Notes: generated by a model not told the origin, from the letters alone. DNA of 64,000 nt from an archaeon (GCA_028279705.1 JANQNF010000024.1:269011-333010), one strand, 5' to 3'; positions 1-3,570 are shown, counted from the stretch's first letter. Made by a program: numbers and translations.

Positions 1-34
1 CGGGATGATACGCTAGTTCTACCGGAATAGCGGA

Positions 35-460
35 ATGGTGACTATATTGTCAGACTTCATAACAGATTGTCTGCGAGGAATTTTCGACACCGATGGATCA
101 TTCACATTTAAGAAAAATCACAAAAAAGTGAACTATTACCCGGTTGTCAAGCTTTACATGAAGAGCAAACCTCTGATAAAGCAGGTTGCAGAACTACTGC
201 TTATTTATGGAATAGAGAGCAACGTCCAATATGATGTAAAGGCTTTCGACAAAAGGGGCTTCATTTCTATTACACACCAACTTCATATAAACGGTAAGCG
301 CATGATTGGAAAATTCATGGAGGTAATAGGAACGTCGAATCCTAAGCATGAAACAAAATATCTTTTATGGCGAAAGAAAGGCTTTGTGAAACCAGGTTCT
401 AAATTACACGAAAGAATGAGCGAATTAGGTCTGAATTACACAAAATTTATTAAAGATTGA
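35..460 (+). CDS. Free-standing LAGLIDADG-family endonuclease-like protein (single motif visible)
   Basis: Motif DCLRGIFDTDGS followed by typical beta-strand segments and a C-terminal F..IG..NPKH..KY motif. The start may be TTG at 47 after GGTGA. An upstream frame ends at TAG 28-30. Confidence 0.8.
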   Translation: MVTILSDFITDCLRGIFDTDGSFTFKKNHKKVNYYPVVKLYMKSKPLIKQVAELLLIYGIESNVQYDVKAFDKRGFISITHQLHINGKRMIGKFMEVIGTSNPKHETKYLLWRKKGFVKPGSKLHERMSELGLNYTKFIKD

Positions 461-482
461 CAGTAATTGGTTATAACATGAT

Positions 483-634
483 GCCTCGGTGGCTCAGCGG
501 TTAGAGCGCCACAAGTCCCTAATAAGGATTAGGTGAAGCTCATAAGCGTGTCTTTATGAGCGCTGAGAAAACAGCAGTTTTCGATGATTTGCTGAGATAC
601 GTGGAGGTCACGAGTTCAAATCTCGTCCGAGGCA
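483..634 (+). tRNA. tRNA-Met(CAU), elongator type, with two introns (513-537 at 30/31; 545-598 at 37/38)
   Basis: Acceptor GCCTCGG/CCGAGGC-A, D arm GCTC/GAGC, T arm ACGAG-TTCAAAT-CTCGT. Removing both introns gives the anticodon arm CCACG-CT CAT AA-CGTGG. Both junctions fit BHB geometry (CGCC/GGTG with ACA and AAG bulges; CTCA/TGAG with TAA and ATA bulges). Ile2(CAU) is not strictly excluded. Confidence 0.9.
545..598 (+). ncRNA. Candidate intron-encoded box C/D guide RNA for Cm34 of tRNA-Met
   Basis: D box CTGA 563-566, stem GAAAAC/GTTTTC, 3-nt bulge GAT then GA (C-like box ATGATTT 584-590), second CTGA 592-595. The antisense TTATGAGCG (554-562) is complementary to CGCTCATAA. Confidence 0.65.
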
Positions 635-637
635 TTT

Positions 638-680
638 CCTCCGGGTTGGGAATTCGTTTCCCGCCCGAGGCACTTTTTCT
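638..680 (+). terminator. GC-rich stem-loop plus T-tract downstream of tRNA-Met; also resembles a tRNA 3'-end copy
   Basis: CCT-C-CGGG-TT-GGGAA-TTCG-TTTCCC-G-CCCG-AGG followed by cactttttct. Confidence 0.5.
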
Positions 681-716
681 ATATGTATTTAAAAAACTTC
701 CTACCGATTCAATGGT

Positions 717-950
717 ATGAATAACGCCAATGGTAAAATTGAATACCTTACTACGGATTTACATAAGGATTGTGACGGCAATATCTACAAATTTATGGGT
801 GAGAATAATGCCCCAATTGCTGTTTCGTTCTCTGATGTCTCAAGAAAGCTTGGTATACCTAAAAGTGAAGTGAGGGCATTTCCGGATGGGGAGATAGTAC
901 TGACCACACTTCCGAGCGGGGAGCTCAAGTATACAGTTCGTCGTTCTTAG
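717..950 (+). CDS. Hypothetical protein (AT-rich ORFan)
   Basis: 77-aa ORF with TTTAAA box upstream; no recognised motif. Confidence 0.5.
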   Translation: MNNANGKIEYLTTDLHKDCDGNIYKFMGENNAPIAVSFSDVSRKLGIPKSEVRAFPDGEIVLTTLPSGELKYTVRRS

Positions 951-1058
951 TGCACGAATCGTATGATGTAATGTGCATTCATTCAGTGTTCTTATACTCG
1001 TTCTCGCACTTTTTGAAATTGGGAAAATTTTTATGGCAGCTTCGTCATACTAAATACC

Positions 1059-1547
1059 ATGACCTCAAAAGAGACCATAAAAGTTGTGGTAGAGATACCT
1101 AAAGGCAGCAGGAACAAATACGAATATGACACCAAAACAGGGTACATAAAGTTCGACAGGATGCTTTTTTCTTCTGTCCATTATCCATGCGACTACGGCT
1201 TTATACCTGAGACCCTTGCAAGGGACGGTGACACACTTGATGCCCTCATAATAGTCGAGGAGCCGACATTTCCCGGCTGCATGATAGAGGCAGTGCCTGT
1301 CGGTGTCTTCAAGATGAGTGACGAAAAGGGTCCTGATGAAAAGATACTCTGCGTACCCGTGTCTGATCCAATGTGGAATCACATAAAGGACCTTTCAAAG
1401 GTCCCGCCCCATCTCCTAAAGGAGATTGAGCAGTTCTTCAGAACATATAAAGAGCTTGAAGGAAAGAAGACGAAGATCCAGGGATGGGAAGGTAAGAGGC
1501 CAGCCCTTGGCGTGATAAACGAGTGCAAGAAGATGTACAAGAAGTGA
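1059..1547 (+). CDS. ppa: Inorganic pyrophosphatase (family I)
   Basis: EIPKGSRNKYE, YPCDYGFIPETL, DGDTLD, DEKI motifs. Confidence 0.97.
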   Translation: MTSKETIKVVVEIPKGSRNKYEYDTKTGYIKFDRMLFSSVHYPCDYGFIPETLARDGDTLDALIIVEEPTFPGCMIEAVPVGVFKMSDEKGPDEKILCVPVSDPMWNHIKDLSKVPPHLLKEIEQFFRTYKELEGKKTKIQGWEGKRPALGVINECKKMYKK

Positions 1548-1552
1548 CTACT

Positions 1553-2272
1553 TCATTTTATCCTGAAATAAAGCCTTCTGTTGTTCTTTCCCTTGTTTTC
1601 ACACTTTATGAGTTCAAGGTCCCCTATTTCGCTAGTGTTTTTTATGTGGGTGCCGCCGTCGGCCTGCCTGTCGATGCCCTTTATGTCGACTATGCGTATC
1701 TCCTTTATCCCGGGTGGCAGACCCTTTGCGAGTCTTGATAGTCCTTCTTCCTTTTCCGCATCTTCCCTCGATATGAACGACACCTCGACTTCTGCGCCTT
1801 CTGCAGCTCTTTTGCTTGCTTCCTTTACGAACCCGTCCATGAGCGACGGGTCGTAGTCATCGAGCGAGAAGTCTATCCTGGACTTTTCCTCACCGAGCTG
1901 GTTTCCAGTAATCATCGCGCCGGTCTTCTGGTTTATGATACCGCTTATTATGTGAGACGCTGTGTGGTACCTCATGTGGGTGTGGCGCCTTTCCCAGTCT
2001 ATAGCACCTTTGACAGTGTCCCCCGCTTCCAGCGTCTTGCCTTCAGGACTTTCGACCTCGTGGCTTATCTCACCACCGAACTTGCCGACGAAGACCACCT
2101 TGAAGACAGTGCCGTCGGAAGACCGTGTGACAGTCCCGGTGTCGTATGGTTGCCCACCGGCGTTTGGGTAGAATGCTGTTTCTTCAAGGACGACGAACTT
2201 GCCGTCCTTGACATTCTTTACAGTGGTATTAAACTCCTTGATGTACGAGTCTTTCATGTAAAGCGCTTGCAT
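1553..2272 (-). CDS. alaXM: Alanyl-tRNA editing protein AlaX-M
   Basis: TAFYPNAGGQPYD, MRYHTASH, QADGGTH, NKGKNNRRLY; 239 aa. Confidence 0.93.
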   Translation of the reverse strand: MQALYMKDSYIKEFNTTVKNVKDGKFVVLEETAFYPNAGGQPYDTGTVTRSSDGTVFKVVFVGKFGGEISHEVESPEGKTLEAGDTVKGAIDWERRHTHMRYHTASHIISGIINQKTGAMITGNQLGEEKSRIDFSLDDYDPSLMDGFVKEASKRAAEGAEVEVSFISREDAEKEEGLSRLAKGLPPGIKEIRIVDIKGIDRQADGGTHIKNTSEIGDLELIKCENKGKNNRRLYFRIK

Positions 2273-2313
2273 AGAAGATAATTCTGCGTAGATGATTAAA
2301 AAACTTTAGAATG

Positions 2314-3570
2314 TCACAGGTTCGGATTGACAACTCTTCCCATGAAAAGTATGTTACCAGTATCCTTTTCCTGGATTATGAAGACAAAGGGATGATCAGC
2401 CCTGAATACATTACGTGGCATACCTTTTGATAGCATGACCAACGCAGTAGCAGCGGCAGCTTCCGTACCTTCCTCGTCAACTTTAATGTAAGCCTGGTGT
2501 ATCACATCGCTGATAAAGAGGTTTTCTGTCCCATCCATTCCCGAAAAGTCTGCTCCCGGTAAATTAAATGGTGCTTGCATGCCCATTGAGGTCAGCGTAT
2601 CTACCATGAAGTATTTTGTTTCGAATTCGAATCTTGGCATGTATATGGCATCCAATTTAGTCATTTCCATCTCACTTTTCCACTCTTCCAGACTTTCCGC
2701 ATTTAGCAATGGCTCGACATCGCCAAGAGTCTCATTTGGCAATATTATCAGCATAGAGATATCATCTCCCCTGTATGGAAGTTCCAAAATCTGTAAATGC
2801 CCAAGGTCAGCATAGCTGAAATCCGTTTTATCGTTATCCAAAATCATCATAGGTGCTTTCACAGTGCTTGTCGGAGTAACCTTAAATCTACTTTCTGTTG
2901 TCTTGGATTTATCGAATTGCCATACCCACGAACCTTTGAAATAAATGGCATTCGTAAGCACCATTGCCGTTTCCTGATCCAATGTTCCAGGCGGAATTAA
3001 GTCCCGGATCTTATGATTCGTCTGCTCTTCGATGAAACTGTTTATCGTCTGCCTGGACTTTTCTGCCTCTTTGAAGAAATCCAGATTTGCCGCTTTCCCG
3101 CCGTAATATTTTTCAACAGTCTCCATGTAATCTTTGAGAAACGGATAATCTTCCTGTACCCACAGCGCGTTTCCTGTTCTCAGTTCATAGTCACTGACTT
3201 CCCTGTTTATGTCATTGTAAATTGCTGCGTAATTCGGCCTTATGATGTCATATTCGGGAAAATGGAATACAGTATTTATTTCATCTGCTGTTTGCCCCTT
3301 TGCACCTTCAAGCGTCATGGCAAAAGCTGAAGATATACTGTATGGGGAAAAGAACAGGTTACCACTCTCCTCATTGACAAATTCTGAATAAAGATCGAAT
3401 GCAAACTGATTGTTTGCATTTACCACTTTCTGAATCCCATCCTTCGTTGAGCCAGCATCATCTGCCGTTGGAGGTTGAAGGGGAGCGTATGGGAAAAGAA
3501 ACAATACCGTAGCGCTGGCTGTACCGACAAGTAAAATTGCCAGCAGTGGAGTCAAAATTGCCTTATTCAT
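2314..3570 (-). CDS. Serpin (serine protease inhibitor) with N-terminal signal/anchor
   Basis: NNQFAFDLY, NLFFSPYSI, LTNAIYFKGSW, hinge VDEEGTEAAAAT, FRADHPFVFII. Confidence 0.95.
   Translation of the reverse strand: MNKAILTPLLAILLVGTASATVLFLFPYAPLQPPTADDAGSTKDGIQKVVNANNQFAFDLYSEFVNEESGNLFFSPYSISSAFAMTLEGAKGQTADEINTVFHFPEYDIIRPNYAAIYNDINREVSDYELRTGNALWVQEDYPFLKDYMETVEKYYGGKAANLDFFKEAEKSRQTINSFIEEQTNHKIRDLIPPGTLDQETAMVLTNAIYFKGSWVWQFDKSKTTESRFKVTPTSTVKAPMMILDNDKTDFSYADLGHLQILELPYRGDDISMLIILPNETLGDVEPLLNAESLEEWKSEMEMTKLDAIYMPRFEFETKYFMVDTLTSMGMQAPFNLPGADFSGMDGTENLFISDVIHQAYIKVDEEGTEAAAATALVMLSKGMPRNVFRADHPFVFIIQEKDTGNILFMGRVVNPNL

What the first reader, a model, noticed from the sequence alone, without database searches (positions are those of the whole stretch)
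538..598. Self-targeting, circularly permuted box C/D guide hidden in the tRNA-Met intron, aimed at anticodon C34
Seen: TTATGAGCG (554-562) directly precedes a D box CTGA (563-566) and is the reverse complement of CGCTCATAA, tRNA positions 30-38. The fifth base upstream of the D box (G558) pairs with C541, the wobble C34. After the D box come a perfect 6-bp stem GAAAAC/GTTTTC, a 3-nt bulge GAT, tandem G.A/A.G and U.U pairs, which is kink-turn geometry. A second CTGA lies at 592-595. In the linear intron the C-like box lies 3' of the D box, so C-D'-guide-D order appears only in the excised circle. The ninth guide pair (G562-C30) exists only after intron 1 is removed. Known: the D+5 rule, L7Ae binding to k-turns, circular archaeal introns, and the euryarchaeal tRNA-Trp intron guiding its own Cm34/Um39. 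I recall a tRNA-Met intron sRNA being proposed for Nanoarchaeum, so novelty needs a literature check. Inference: a minimal guide coupling two-step splicing to anticodon 2'-O-methylation.
Basis: partly seen in the sequence, partly recalled or inferred. Interest (0 to 1): 0.8.

Follow-up and report, generated by a model that had tools for sequence, protein, structure and literature searches.

The report
Intron-borne methylation guide in tRNA-Met
The intron of this archaeal methionine tRNA gene carries a small protein-binding kink and a stretch that pairs with the tRNA's own anticodon, an arrangement conserved across a whole phylum of tiny archaea that most likely directs methylation of the anticodon's first base before the intron is cut out.

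Summary
Window 483-634 is an elongator tRNA-Met(CAU) gene with two introns (513-537; 545-598). In the canonical intron, UUAUGAGCG (554-562) abuts CUGA (563-566), then a 6-bp stem (567-572/577-582), a GAU bulge and GA (586-587): a kink-turn. C34 (541) pairs with the fifth base upstream of the box.

It is not a one-off. The same layout occurs in tRNA-Met introns of at least 212 of 371 genomes of the phylum. In 75 of 80 contexts a k-turn or K-loop follows the box, with 33 different covarying stems. Pairing extends into intron bases, so the substrate is the unspliced precursor. The same genome has the same device in tRNA-Leu(UAA), Arg(UCU) and Glu(UUC) introns, each aimed at position 34. Fibrillarin, Nop5 and L7Ae are encoded.

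The "circular permutation" reading is not supported. D' before C' is the normal internal C'/D' order, and the second CUGA is the splicing-helix strand, not conserved as a box. This is a C'/D'-only half guide with no terminal C/D motif.

Most likely it guides Cm34 before splicing (about 0.65). The main caveat is that single-site C/D RNPs lost site specificity in vitro. It is a new variant of a known kind (tRNA-Trp intron guide; Nanoarchaeum tRNA-Met intron candidate).

The parts
483..634 (+). Elongator tRNA-Met(CAU) gene, no encoded CCA. Exons are 483-512, 538-544 and 599-634.
   Evidence: Rfam RF00005 scores 49.4 bits. The acceptor stem is GCCTCGG/CCGAGGC. The genome's other two CAU tRNAs are initiator-like (C80) and Ile2-like (C42). 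Full-length orthologues are found in relatives.
513..537 (+). Intron 1, non-canonical, between nt 30 and 31. It has an internal hairpin and a relaxed BHB (H helix 507-510 with 532-535; bulges 511-513 and 536-538).
   Evidence: The boundaries are fixed by the need to rebuild the anticodon stem CCACG/CGTGG. The 3' end GG(Y)GA(A/T) is conserved in relatives that carry the intron. The BHB was assigned by eye, which is an inference.
538..546 (+). Target strand: nt 31-37 of the tRNA plus the first two intron bases. C34 is at 541.
   Evidence: It pairs with 553-561. Covariation is seen at nt 31 and at intron position i2.
545..598 (+). Intron 2, canonical 37/38 position, 54 nt. The BHB has central helix 539-542/593-596, bulges 543-545 and 597-599, and inner helix 546-547/591-592.
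   Evidence: Direct reading of the sequence. A constrained fold accepts this structure at -40.3 kcal/mol.
553..562 (+). Antisense (guide) element. G558 pairs with C34 and is the fifth base upstream of the box.
   Evidence: It is conserved in 212 of 371 genomes by pattern. The contiguous duplex is 8-10 bp in 64 of 80 contexts.
563..566 (+). D'-like box CUGA. Only the GA is invariant in relatives: UUGA 49, AUGA 16 and CUGA 15 of 80, with UCGA and UGGA also seen.
567..582 (+). Canonical (C) stem of the kink-turn: 567-572 paired with 577-582, loop 573-576.
   Evidence: Relatives show 33 distinct stems. All 6 pairs show changes on both sides, with 99% of cells paired, on a model-fitted alignment of 48 sequences.
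583..589 (+). C'-like box GAUGAUU: a 3-nt bulge at 583-585, the sheared G586 A587 opposite A566 G565, and U588 opposite U564.
   Evidence: Direct reading. The RUGA/GAUGA motif follows the stem or K-loop in 75 of 80 contexts.
592..596 (+). The second CUGA(G). It is the 3' strand of the BHB central helix, pairing with C32-A35, and is not a D box.
   Evidence: Relatives have UGGG, UAAG, GGUG and similar at this place.

Best explanation
The canonical intron of this elongator pre-tRNA-Met carries half of a box C/D methylation guide. It has an internal C'/D'-type kink-turn (the L7Ae site, on which Nop5 and fibrillarin would assemble) and, directly 5' of the D'-like box, a 9-10-nt antisense element. 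That element pairs with nt 31-38 of the same precursor plus one or two intron bases. This places the ribose of the wobble base C34 opposite the fifth guide position, the site fibrillarin methylates, to give Cm34.

The guide:target helix and the bulge-helix-bulge splicing structure both use C32-A35, so they exclude each other. The precursor would first sit in the guide conformer, be methylated in cis or by a second precursor in trans, and then refold for cleavage by the broad-specificity splicing endonuclease.

Shown here: the sequence anatomy, its conservation and covariation, the machinery genes, and the computed conformer energies. Inferred: L7Ae binding, methylation at C34, and the order of events.
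For: Anatomy. The guide, box, stem, 3-nt bulge, tandem G.A pairs and U.U pair are all present at the stated coordinates.

Conservation. By exact pattern, 39 of 91 genomes of the order match, with 42 matches against 4 control matches. In the class, 212 of 371 genomes match, or 64 of 98 high-quality genomes. The pattern undercounts: 4 of 4 pattern-negative relatives whose tRNA-Met locus I held still have the layout, with UCGA or UGGA boxes or a long hairpin loop.

Kink-turn. 75 of 80 tRNA contexts have a k-turn (44, with 33 distinct stems) or a K-loop (31) right after the box, against about 16.5 of 80 in shuffles. On 48 sequences aligned to a model, all 6 stem pairs show changes on both sides, and 96.9% of cells are paired against 79.1% in shuffles.

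Guide helix. It extends beyond the invariant loop. The pair between nt 31 and guide position 2 forms in 63 of 80 contexts, as G:C 29, A:U 22 and U:A 12. The second intron base is paired in 32 of 80, with six pair types. The duplex therefore forms on the unspliced precursor.

Independent repeats of the rule. In the same genome, introns of tRNA-Leu(UAA), Arg(UCU) and Glu(UUC) carry different antisense sequences in the same register, each putting nt 34 at box+5. Their orthologues in relatives keep the layout with covarying stems.

Machinery. Fibrillarin (253 bits), Nop5 (197 bits) and L7Ae (106 bits) are all on the window's own contig. Fibrillarin scores over the cut-off in 197 of 198 genomes of the class.

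Folding. The centroid fold of the precursor contains the 538-545/554-561 helix. The guide conformer scores -51.6 kcal/mol and the BHB conformer -40.3 kcal/mol.

Known biology. Cm34 of archaeal elongator tRNA-Met is guided by box C/D RNAs that pair across the exon-intron junction before splicing (Grosjean 2008, PMC2584109, passage read; Hori 2014, PMC4033218).
Against: - No terminal C/D motif exists. Hardin and Batey 2006 (PMC1635284, abstract read) report that a single-site C/D RNP is active in vitro but not specific for the methylation site, and that both motifs are needed for specificity.
- The D'-like box is mostly UUGA or AUGA rather than CUGA.
- The guide duplex is short, at 8-10 bp.
- The core of the helix is the invariant anticodon loop, so most of its pairs cannot show covariation.
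- nt 31 is unpaired with the guide in 17 of 80 contexts, and in 10 of 48 in the model alignment.
- The model-fitted alignment leans towards the structure it was built on.
- There are no expression, circular-junction or modification data. No listed sequencing run is on record as RNA.
- The pattern is missing from 159 of 371 genomes, although incompleteness and variant boxes explain at least part of that.
Confidence: 0.65

Rival explanations
1. The element is a structural or timing device rather than a site-specific guide. The antisense hairpin masks the anticodon loop and blocks BHB formation, and the L7Ae-bound kink-turn stabilises or chaperones this state. Splicing or export to translation is held back until the RNP is remodelled. 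No methylation occurs, or only non-specific methylation.
For: The guide conformer is computed to be about 11 kcal/mol more stable than the BHB conformer. A single k-turn without a second motif was not site-specific in vitro (abstract). L7Ae binds k-turns in many RNAs that are not methylation guides; this is established knowledge that I am recalling.
Against: A mere mask would not need the helix to abut the box in a fixed register. Four different tRNAs place nt 34 exactly at box+5. The register is kept in the Glu, Arg and Leu orthologues found by whole-gene similarity. The register seen across the phylum was fixed by my search pattern and so is not an independent test. Cm34 of tRNA-Met is a known C/D-guided modification made on the precursor. 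Fibrillarin and Nop5 are retained in essentially all of these very small genomes.
Confidence: 0.15
2. The guide is circularly permuted and becomes a proper C-D'-guide-D RNA only as the excised circular intron. It acts after the first intron is removed, so that two-step splicing is coupled to methylation.
For: Archaeal tRNA introns and C/D sRNAs do circularise (Randau 2012 and Breuer 2021, passages read). The ninth pair G562-C30 exists only after intron 1 removal.
Against: D' then C' is the normal internal order, and many relatives have plain K-loops. The second CUGA is not conserved and belongs to the BHB helix. Some relatives lack intron 1 yet keep the guide (for example L013, L016 and L018; not counted). 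Pairing at guide position 1 is mostly absent or a G.U wobble. Covariation with the second intron base shows the target is the unspliced precursor, which an excised circle could still reach in trans but does not require.
Confidence: 0.07
3. The element is inherited baggage. The intron family spread by transposition or duplication among tRNA genes and keeps a hairpin and k-turn by descent or for its own propagation, with no role in tRNA modification.
For: The Met and Leu k-turn stems in this genome are similar (GAAAAC/GUUUUC against GAAAC/GUUUC). tRNA intron transposition is described in other archaea (recalled from the literature, not read here).
Against: Each tRNA's antisense element matches its own anticodon loop. 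Stems drift while staying paired, with 33 distinct stems. The layout survives reduction to introns of about 30-40 nt, which argues for selection on the parts themselves.
Confidence: 0.06
4. The resemblance is chance, or the guide is really aimed at another RNA such as rRNA.
For: None specific. BHB introns always carry about 4 nt complementary to the anticodon region.
Against: The 9-nt antisense is separate from the 4-nt BHB strand at 593-596. Conservation and controls argue against chance. No rRNA target was sought.
Confidence: 0.02

Closest known systems
Box C/D guide in the pre-tRNA-Trp intron of Euryarchaeota (Haloferax, Pyrococcus)
   Same: The guide sits in the canonical 37/38 intron and targets the wobble C34 of its own tRNA. 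Guide pairing competes with the BHB structure, methylation precedes splicing, and it uses L7Ae/Nop5/fibrillarin. Sources: reviews PMC4090602 and PMC11408192 (passages); PMC2584109.
   Different: The Trp intron is a complete sRNA, with C/D and C'/D' motifs and two guides for C34 and U39. Here there is only a C'/D'-type motif and one guide. The host tRNA is Met, and also Leu, Arg and Glu. The introns can be as short as about 31 nt.
Stable 66-nt intron of Nanoarchaeum equitans elongator tRNA-Met, proposed as a C/D box sRNA (Randau 2012, PMC3491384)
   Same: The same tRNA species and the same intron position class. It was proposed as a methylation guide, and its hairpin is noted in the paper (passages).
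   Different: That paper describes a box C (with one mismatch) plus a consensus box D. Its main text names no target: 'anticodon', 'C34' and 'wobble' each occur 0 times (supplements not seen). I could not obtain its sequence, so homology is untested. N. equitans belongs to another lineage; this is recalled, not tested.
Trans-acting guides for Cm34 of pre-tRNA-Met: Pyrococcus sR49 and haloarchaeal sR-tMet
   Same: The same target nucleotide. Pairing spans the exon-intron junction, so the substrate is the precursor (PMC2584109; PMC4033218).
   Different: Those are separate genes. Grosjean 2008 states that the tRNA-Met guide was 'always exonic' (not intronic) in the archaea surveyed. Here it is inside the intron of its own target.
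Engineered half-mer (hemi) box C/D RNPs
   Same: One k-turn plus one guide, which is the architecture seen here.
   Different: They are synthetic. The single-site RNP was reported active but not site-specific (PMC1635284, abstract). Here the guide is covalently linked to its target through a 3-18-nt hairpin loop, a configuration that study did not address as far as the abstract shows.
Human SNORD97/SCARNA97 guiding Cm34 of elongator tRNA-Met
   Same: The same modification on the same tRNA, made by box C/D RNPs (PMC6601510, seen in the search listing and abstract only).
   Different: These are eukaryotic, trans-acting, full-length snoRNAs.

Membership tests
Archaeal box C/D sRNA | Terminal C box (RUGAUGA) and D box (CUGA) forming a k-turn | tested here: not met
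   There is no C box 5' of the guide. The only other CUGA (592-595) is the BHB strand and is not conserved. Rfam gives no C/D match on 538-598 at E up to 10.
Archaeal box C/D sRNA | Internal D' and C' boxes forming a k-turn or K-loop | tested here: met
   CUGA 563-566, stem 567-572/577-582 and GAUGA 583-587. The motif is present in 75 of 80 contexts against about 16.5 expected, and the stem covaries.
Archaeal box C/D sRNA | Antisense element directly upstream of D or D', with the target at the fifth paired position | tested here: met
   G558 pairs with C541 (C34). The duplex is 8-10 bp in 64 of 80 contexts. The same register is seen in the Leu, Arg and Glu introns.
Archaeal box C/D sRNA | L7Ae, Nop5 and fibrillarin encoded by the organism | tested here: met
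   for the own genome. Fibrillarin is over the cut-off in 197 of 198 genomes of the class.
Archaeal box C/D sRNA | 2'-O-methylation at the predicted site, and protein binding | not testable with these tools
   No modification or RNA data are available. No listed run is on record as RNA.
Intron-encoded tRNA guide (pre-tRNA-Trp type) | The guide lies in a BHB intron at position 37/38 of the tRNA it targets | tested here: met
   Intron 545-598 with a canonical hBHBh' structure.
Intron-encoded tRNA guide (pre-tRNA-Trp type) | A complete bipartite sRNA with two guides (C34 and U39) | tested here: not met
   There is one motif and one guide. Nothing is aimed at nt 39.
Intron-encoded tRNA guide (pre-tRNA-Trp type) | Guide pairing includes intron bases, so it acts before splicing | tested here: met
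   The first intron base is paired in 57 of 80 contexts. The second is paired in 32 of 80, with six pair types.
N. equitans tRNA-Met intron sRNA | Sequence or structure homology to that intron | not tested
   Its sequence was not on hand. My one scan of named genomes was lost to a pattern slip.
Kink-turn (k-turn) RNA motif | Canonical stem, 3-nt bulge, then tandem sheared G.A/A.G pairs | tested here: met
   The sequence geometry is at 563-589. The GA of both strands is kept in relatives while the stems vary. The three-dimensional fold itself is not testable here.

The most novel reading that the evidence does not exclude
A whole archaeal phylum of tiny genomes uses natural single-kink-turn (C'/D'-only) box C/D guides. 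The phylum is probably Micrarchaeota-like, judged from its ARMAN-2-type splicing endonuclease. The guides are built into the canonical introns of at least four tRNAs (Met, Leu-UAA, Arg-UCU, Glu-UUC) and methylate nt 34 of their own precursor before splicing.

This would give these introns a selected function. It would also show that the bipartite C/D plus C'/D' architecture is not obligatory in vivo. Specificity might be restored by the covalent guide-target hairpin, or by two precursors pairing reciprocally on one Nop5 dimer. A simple pattern scan found no conventional bipartite C/D sRNA gene in this genome, so half guides may even be the lineage's main mode.
Probability: 0.3. Interest if true: 0.8.

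Novelty: new variant of a known kind. Interest (0 to 1): 0.62.

Why it matters
Why archaea keep tRNA introns is an open question. The reviews and the endonuclease paper I read name the tRNA-Trp intron as the single clear case of an intron that serves its own tRNA. This finding adds tRNA-Met, and in the same genome Leu, Arg and Glu, in a phylum where more than half of the tRNA genes can be interrupted.

It also offers a natural, minimal, one-motif guide of 30-55 nt. That bears directly on a mechanistic dispute: whether box C/D enzymes need two motifs for site specificity. The question becomes testable with one short RNA and three recombinant proteins.

There is a practical point as well. Standard tRNA finders miss or mislabel this gene.

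Tried and rejected
- ARAGORN with default settings found no tRNA in 1-3000. With introns allowed it called the gene tRNA-Leu(gag) with a 75-nt intron. I rejected that call in favour of the Rfam model and manual parsing.
- Folding the intron alone is uninformative (z -0.77).
- A variable-offset pattern scan meant to test the box register without bias gave mostly chance matches and a truncated list. A genome-wide offset scan was equally noisy, with 10-24 hits at every offset. I dropped both as tests. The register argument rests on the four independent tRNAs.
- My automatic BHB parser failed on genes with intron 1 and on some relatives. I do not use BHB statements for relatives beyond the variability of the CUGA site.
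- The scan of named genomes was wasted. My pattern had one N too many, so it returned only 3 bacterial chance matches. No organism names were obtained and other phyla, including N. equitans, were not examined.
- MAFFT misaligned the variable stems, so RNAalifold found only the invariant helix. I replaced this with a covariance-model alignment.
- The first constrained fold had the stem's 3' strand off by one. It is superseded.
- Pattern scans for conventional bipartite C/D sRNA genes in the own genome gave 0 hits, with controls of 0 and 1. The patterns are strict, so this is a lead only.
- Sequencing runs: no RNA holder is listed. The only full holder is a DNA run that may be the source sample. 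I did not use read laying because DNA contigs cannot show splicing or circles.
- Paper PMC92551 (Clouet-d'Orval 2001) is not held. Supplements of Randau 2012 and Grosjean 2008, which may list targets or guide sequences, could not be seen.
- Not-in-print claim. Searches found no paper in the held library that describes an intron-borne guide for tRNA-Met outside N. equitans, or for Leu, Arg or Glu. The phrase 'box C/D' cannot be searched with its slash, so a relevant paper could have been missed.

Full report
**What is there.** Window 483-634 (+) is a tRNA gene. Rfam's tRNA model matches it end to end (49.4 bits, E 6.8e-09) with an 88-nt insertion in the anticodon arm. ARAGORN misses it with default settings and mislabels it when introns are allowed.

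Reading the sequence gives:
- acceptor stem GCCTCGG/CCGAGGC;
- D arm 492-507;
- nt 27-30 at 509-512;
- intron 1 at 513-537, between nt 30 and 31;
- nt 31-37 (G CUCAUA) at 538-544;
- intron 2 at 545-598, the canonical 37/38 position;
- nt 38-73 at 599-634.

The anticodon is CAU. Intron 2 can form a textbook bulge-helix-bulge (BHB) structure. The anticodon stem continues through G538-C600. The central helix is C539-A542 with U593-G596. The bulges are 543-545 and 597-599. The inner helix is G546-C592 and C547-G591.

**Which CAU tRNA.** The window's assembly (1.9 Mb, 88 contigs, 91.8% complete) holds two other archaeal-type CAU tRNAs. One begins with A and ends with U (initiator-like) and sits on contig C80. 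The other, on C42, has an acceptor stem identical to that of the genome's tRNA-Ile(GAU), which makes it Ile2-like. By exclusion, the window's gene is the elongator tRNA-Met. Neither of the other two carries the device described below.

UUAUGAGCG (554-562) is the exact complement of tRNA nt 30-38. CUGA (563-566) follows directly. G558, the fifth base upstream of that box, pairs with C541, which is C34.

After the box come GAAAAC (567-572), loop AGCA, GUUUUC (577-582), a GAU bulge (583-585) and GA (586-587). This allows the sheared pairs A566.G586 and G565.A587, and then U564.U588, which is kink-turn geometry.

In the primary transcript the helix runs G538-C561 to A545-U554, plus G546.U553. The centroid fold of the whole precursor contains it.

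**Conservation.** Whole-gene similarity search found orthologues of 75-88% identity in relatives that keep guide, box, stem and GAUGA.
- An exact pattern (CUCAUA, 3-18 nt, AUGAG, 3 nt, UGA) matched 39 of 91 genomes of the order, with 42 matches against 4 for the reversed pattern. Of 46 distinct contexts, 43 were tRNA-Met genes.
- With G.U allowed at one position, it matched 212 of 371 genomes of the class, or 64 of 98 high-quality ones.
- The phylum search returned only members of this same class: 119 of 198 genomes at 85% completeness or better.
- Matches are patchy in some families. Examples are 17 of 44 in f27 and, by my count of the rows, 3 of 17 in f40.
- The pattern undercounts. All 4 pattern-negative relatives whose tRNA-Met locus I held still have the layout, with UCGA or UGGA in place of NUGA, or a hairpin loop longer than 18 nt.

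**Anatomy across 80 tRNA contexts.** Of the 90 unique pattern contexts held as loci, I dropped 10 as not in a tRNA.
- A k-turn (stem of at least 4 bp, 3-nt bulge, GA) follows the box in 44 contexts. A K-loop (2-9 nt, then RUGA) follows in 31. Neither is found in 5. Shuffles of the same sequences give about 16.5 of 80.
- The k-turn stems have 33 different sequences.
- The box is UUGA in 49, AUGA in 16 and CUGA in 15, so only the GA is fixed.
- nt 31 pairs with guide position 2 in 63 of 80, as G:C 29, A:U 22 and U:A 12.
- A37 faces U in 71 of 80.
- The first intron base is paired in 57 of 80.
- The second intron base is paired in 32 of 80, with six pair types.
- The contiguous duplex is 8-10 bp in 64 of 80.

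I built a covariance model from 10 sequences and searched it over the 80 loci. It aligned 48 matches at E up to 3e-4. On that alignment 96.9% of cells are paired against 79.1% in shuffles, and all six stem pairs show changes on both sides. That alignment is fitted to the model's structure, and the genomes are related, so these numbers overstate independence.

**The same device in other tRNAs.** Scanning the own genome for "anticodon-loop complement, 2 nt, NNGA, stem, 3-nt bulge, GA" picked out four tRNA introns among the 22 intron-containing archaeal-type tRNA genes examined: Met(CAU), Leu(UAA), Arg(UCU) and Glu(UUC). Each antisense element matches its own anticodon loop, and each puts nt 34 at the fifth position upstream of the box.

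In tRNA-Arg the guide pairs with the intron's first base (G) rather than the mature A38. That again points to the precursor as substrate.

Orthologues of the three genes in relatives keep the layout while the stems change. These are four independent antisense sequences obeying one spacing rule. I take this as the strongest argument that the spacing serves fibrillarin's +5 rule and is not just a hairpin.

**Machinery.** Nop5 (196.7 bits) and fibrillarin (253.3 bits) are adjacent on the window's own contig, and L7Ae (106.2 bits) is on the same contig. Fibrillarin scores over the family cut-off in 197 of 198 genomes of the class, although these genomes are only 0.3-2.0 Mb.

The genome also encodes a 400-residue splicing endonuclease. 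It matches the three-unit epsilon-type enzyme of ARMAN-2 (PDB 4FZ2) over its whole length (E 9.9e-93). [quoted passage not shown] This fits the many non-canonical introns seen here. It also suggests, as an inference only, that the phylum is Micrarchaeota or close to it.

**How it most likely works.** The guide helix and the BHB central helix both need C32-A35, so the two structures exclude each other.

With each structure enforced, the whole precursor folds to -51.6 kcal/mol in the guide form and -40.3 kcal/mol in the BHB form. The local anticodon-arm segment gives -14.6 against -2.4 (one search had a coordinate slip). These energies ignore proteins and the non-canonical pairs.

The likely sequence of events is as follows, and all of these steps are inferred:
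1. The transcript first adopts the guide form.
2. L7Ae binds the kink-turn.
3. Nop5-fibrillarin methylates C34.
4. The RNA refolds and the endonuclease removes the intron.

This order matches what is reported for the trans-acting guides of pre-tRNA-Met and for the pre-tRNA-Trp intron, where pairing includes intron bases and so methylation must precede splicing (Grosjean 2008, PMC2584109).

**What does not hold.** The "circularly permuted" reading is unnecessary. In every box C/D RNA, D' comes before C', separated by a short loop, and many relatives show exactly such K-loops.

The second CUGA (592-595) is the BHB strand. Relatives have UGGG, UAAG, GGUG and similar there. There is no C box 5' of the guide.

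So this is half of a box C/D RNA, a C'/D' motif with one guide, whether linear or circular.

The link to two-step splicing is also weak. In the sequences printed, only some relatives carry intron 1. Guide position 1 faces nt 30 mostly as G.U or a mismatch.

**Main objection.** Hardin and Batey (2006, PMC1635284; abstract only) reduced an archaeal C/D RNP to a single site. They found it active but no longer specific for the methylated position, and concluded that both motifs are needed for specificity.

A natural half guide must solve this some other way. It could use the hairpin that ties the guide to its target, the tRNA body, or two precursors on one Nop5 dimer. Otherwise the element has a different role, such as masking the anticodon and timing splicing with L7Ae. 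I give the methylation-guide reading 0.65 and the structural reading 0.15.

**Comparison with the literature.**
- Reviews from 2014 and 2024 name only the pre-tRNA-Trp intron as an intron that guides modification of its own tRNA (PMC4090602 and PMC11408192, passages).
- Grosjean 2008 states that the Cm34 guide of tRNA-Met was never intronic in the archaea surveyed.
- Randau 2012 found a stable 66-nt intron in N. equitans elongator tRNA-Met and proposed it as a C/D box sRNA with a box C variant and a box D. The main text names no target (supplements not seen).
- My searches of the held library found nothing on tRNA-Met intron guides in other lineages, on Leu, Arg or Glu introns, or on natural single-motif guides. 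The search tool cannot match "C/D" with its slash, so a relevant paper could have been missed.

**Verdict.** It is a phylum-wide, covarying, intron-borne half guide aimed at nt 34, present in four tRNAs of this genome. It is a new variant of a known kind. No expression or modification data could be obtained.

Noticed in passing
Outside the window, same assembly: G000:C3:110508-110679 (-), G000:C3:260920-261041 (+), G000:C35:162038-162192 (-): Introns of tRNA-Leu(UAA), tRNA-Arg(UCU) and tRNA-Glu(UUC) carry the same device: an antisense to their own anticodon loop, 2 nt, a UCGA or UUGA box, a hairpin, a 3-nt bulge and GA. Each puts nt 34 at box+5. The layout is conserved in relatives, with covarying stems.
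   Followed up: partly
window 35-460 (+): A 141-residue ORF ending 23 nt upstream of the tRNA gene matches the LAGLIDADG_3 homing-endonuclease-like domain (PF14528, E 4.1e-13). Any link to the intron-rich tRNA gene is unknown.
   Followed up: no
window 627-634 and 664-671: The last 8 nt of the tRNA (CCGAGGCA) recur 30 nt downstream, just before a run of T. This could be a remnant of an integration site or chance.
   Followed up: no
Outside the window: G000 contig C74 (about 144.6-148.0 kb) and short contigs C31, C57, C65, C78, C88: C74 holds a dense array of about 40 intron-less tRNA genes. Several short contigs hold Ile-Ala tRNA pairs of the kind found in bacterial rRNA operons. The assembly is 1.9 Mb, while relatives are 0.3-2.0 Mb. 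Some contigs may be mis-binned bacterial or viral DNA despite the 0.35% contamination estimate.
   Followed up: no
Outside the window: G000:C70:42086-42204 (+) and G000:C35:258203-258325 (+); also L026 and L049 in relatives: The introns of tRNA-Ile(GAU) and tRNA-Thr(UGU) share a motif, GTCAGAAAAAGCGT(T/C)AAC, flanked by a stem. Similar AAAGCGTT(A/C)(A/G)CGGAAAA strings occur in T-loop introns of relatives' tRNA-Met genes. This may be a second conserved intron module of unknown role.
   Followed up: no
Outside the window: G000:C35:15035-15526 (-) and G000:C3:65012-65284 (+): The genome has a 400-residue epsilon-type splicing endonuclease, a full-length match to ARMAN-2 EndA (PDB 4FZ2, E 9.9e-93). 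It also has a second, shorter endonuclease-domain gene in a 237-residue open frame.
   Followed up: partly
Whole own genome: Pattern scans for conventional bipartite box C/D sRNA genes (C box, guide, D', C', guide, D box) found none: 0 hits, with reversed controls of 0 and 1. The patterns are strict, so this is only a lead that standard guides may be rare or divergent here.
   Followed up: partly
L089:1372-1433 (+), in a relative: The covariance model of the tRNA-Met guide arm gave a second match (20 bits, E 0.0036) about 70 nt upstream of that genome's tRNA-Met gene. It was not examined and may be another tRNA with the same device.
   Followed up: no
window 2314-3570 (-): A 418-residue serpin (PF00079, E 3.1e-120) sits among housekeeping genes: inorganic pyrophosphatase at 1059-1547 and an AlaX-like editing protein at 1553-2272.
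   Followed up: no
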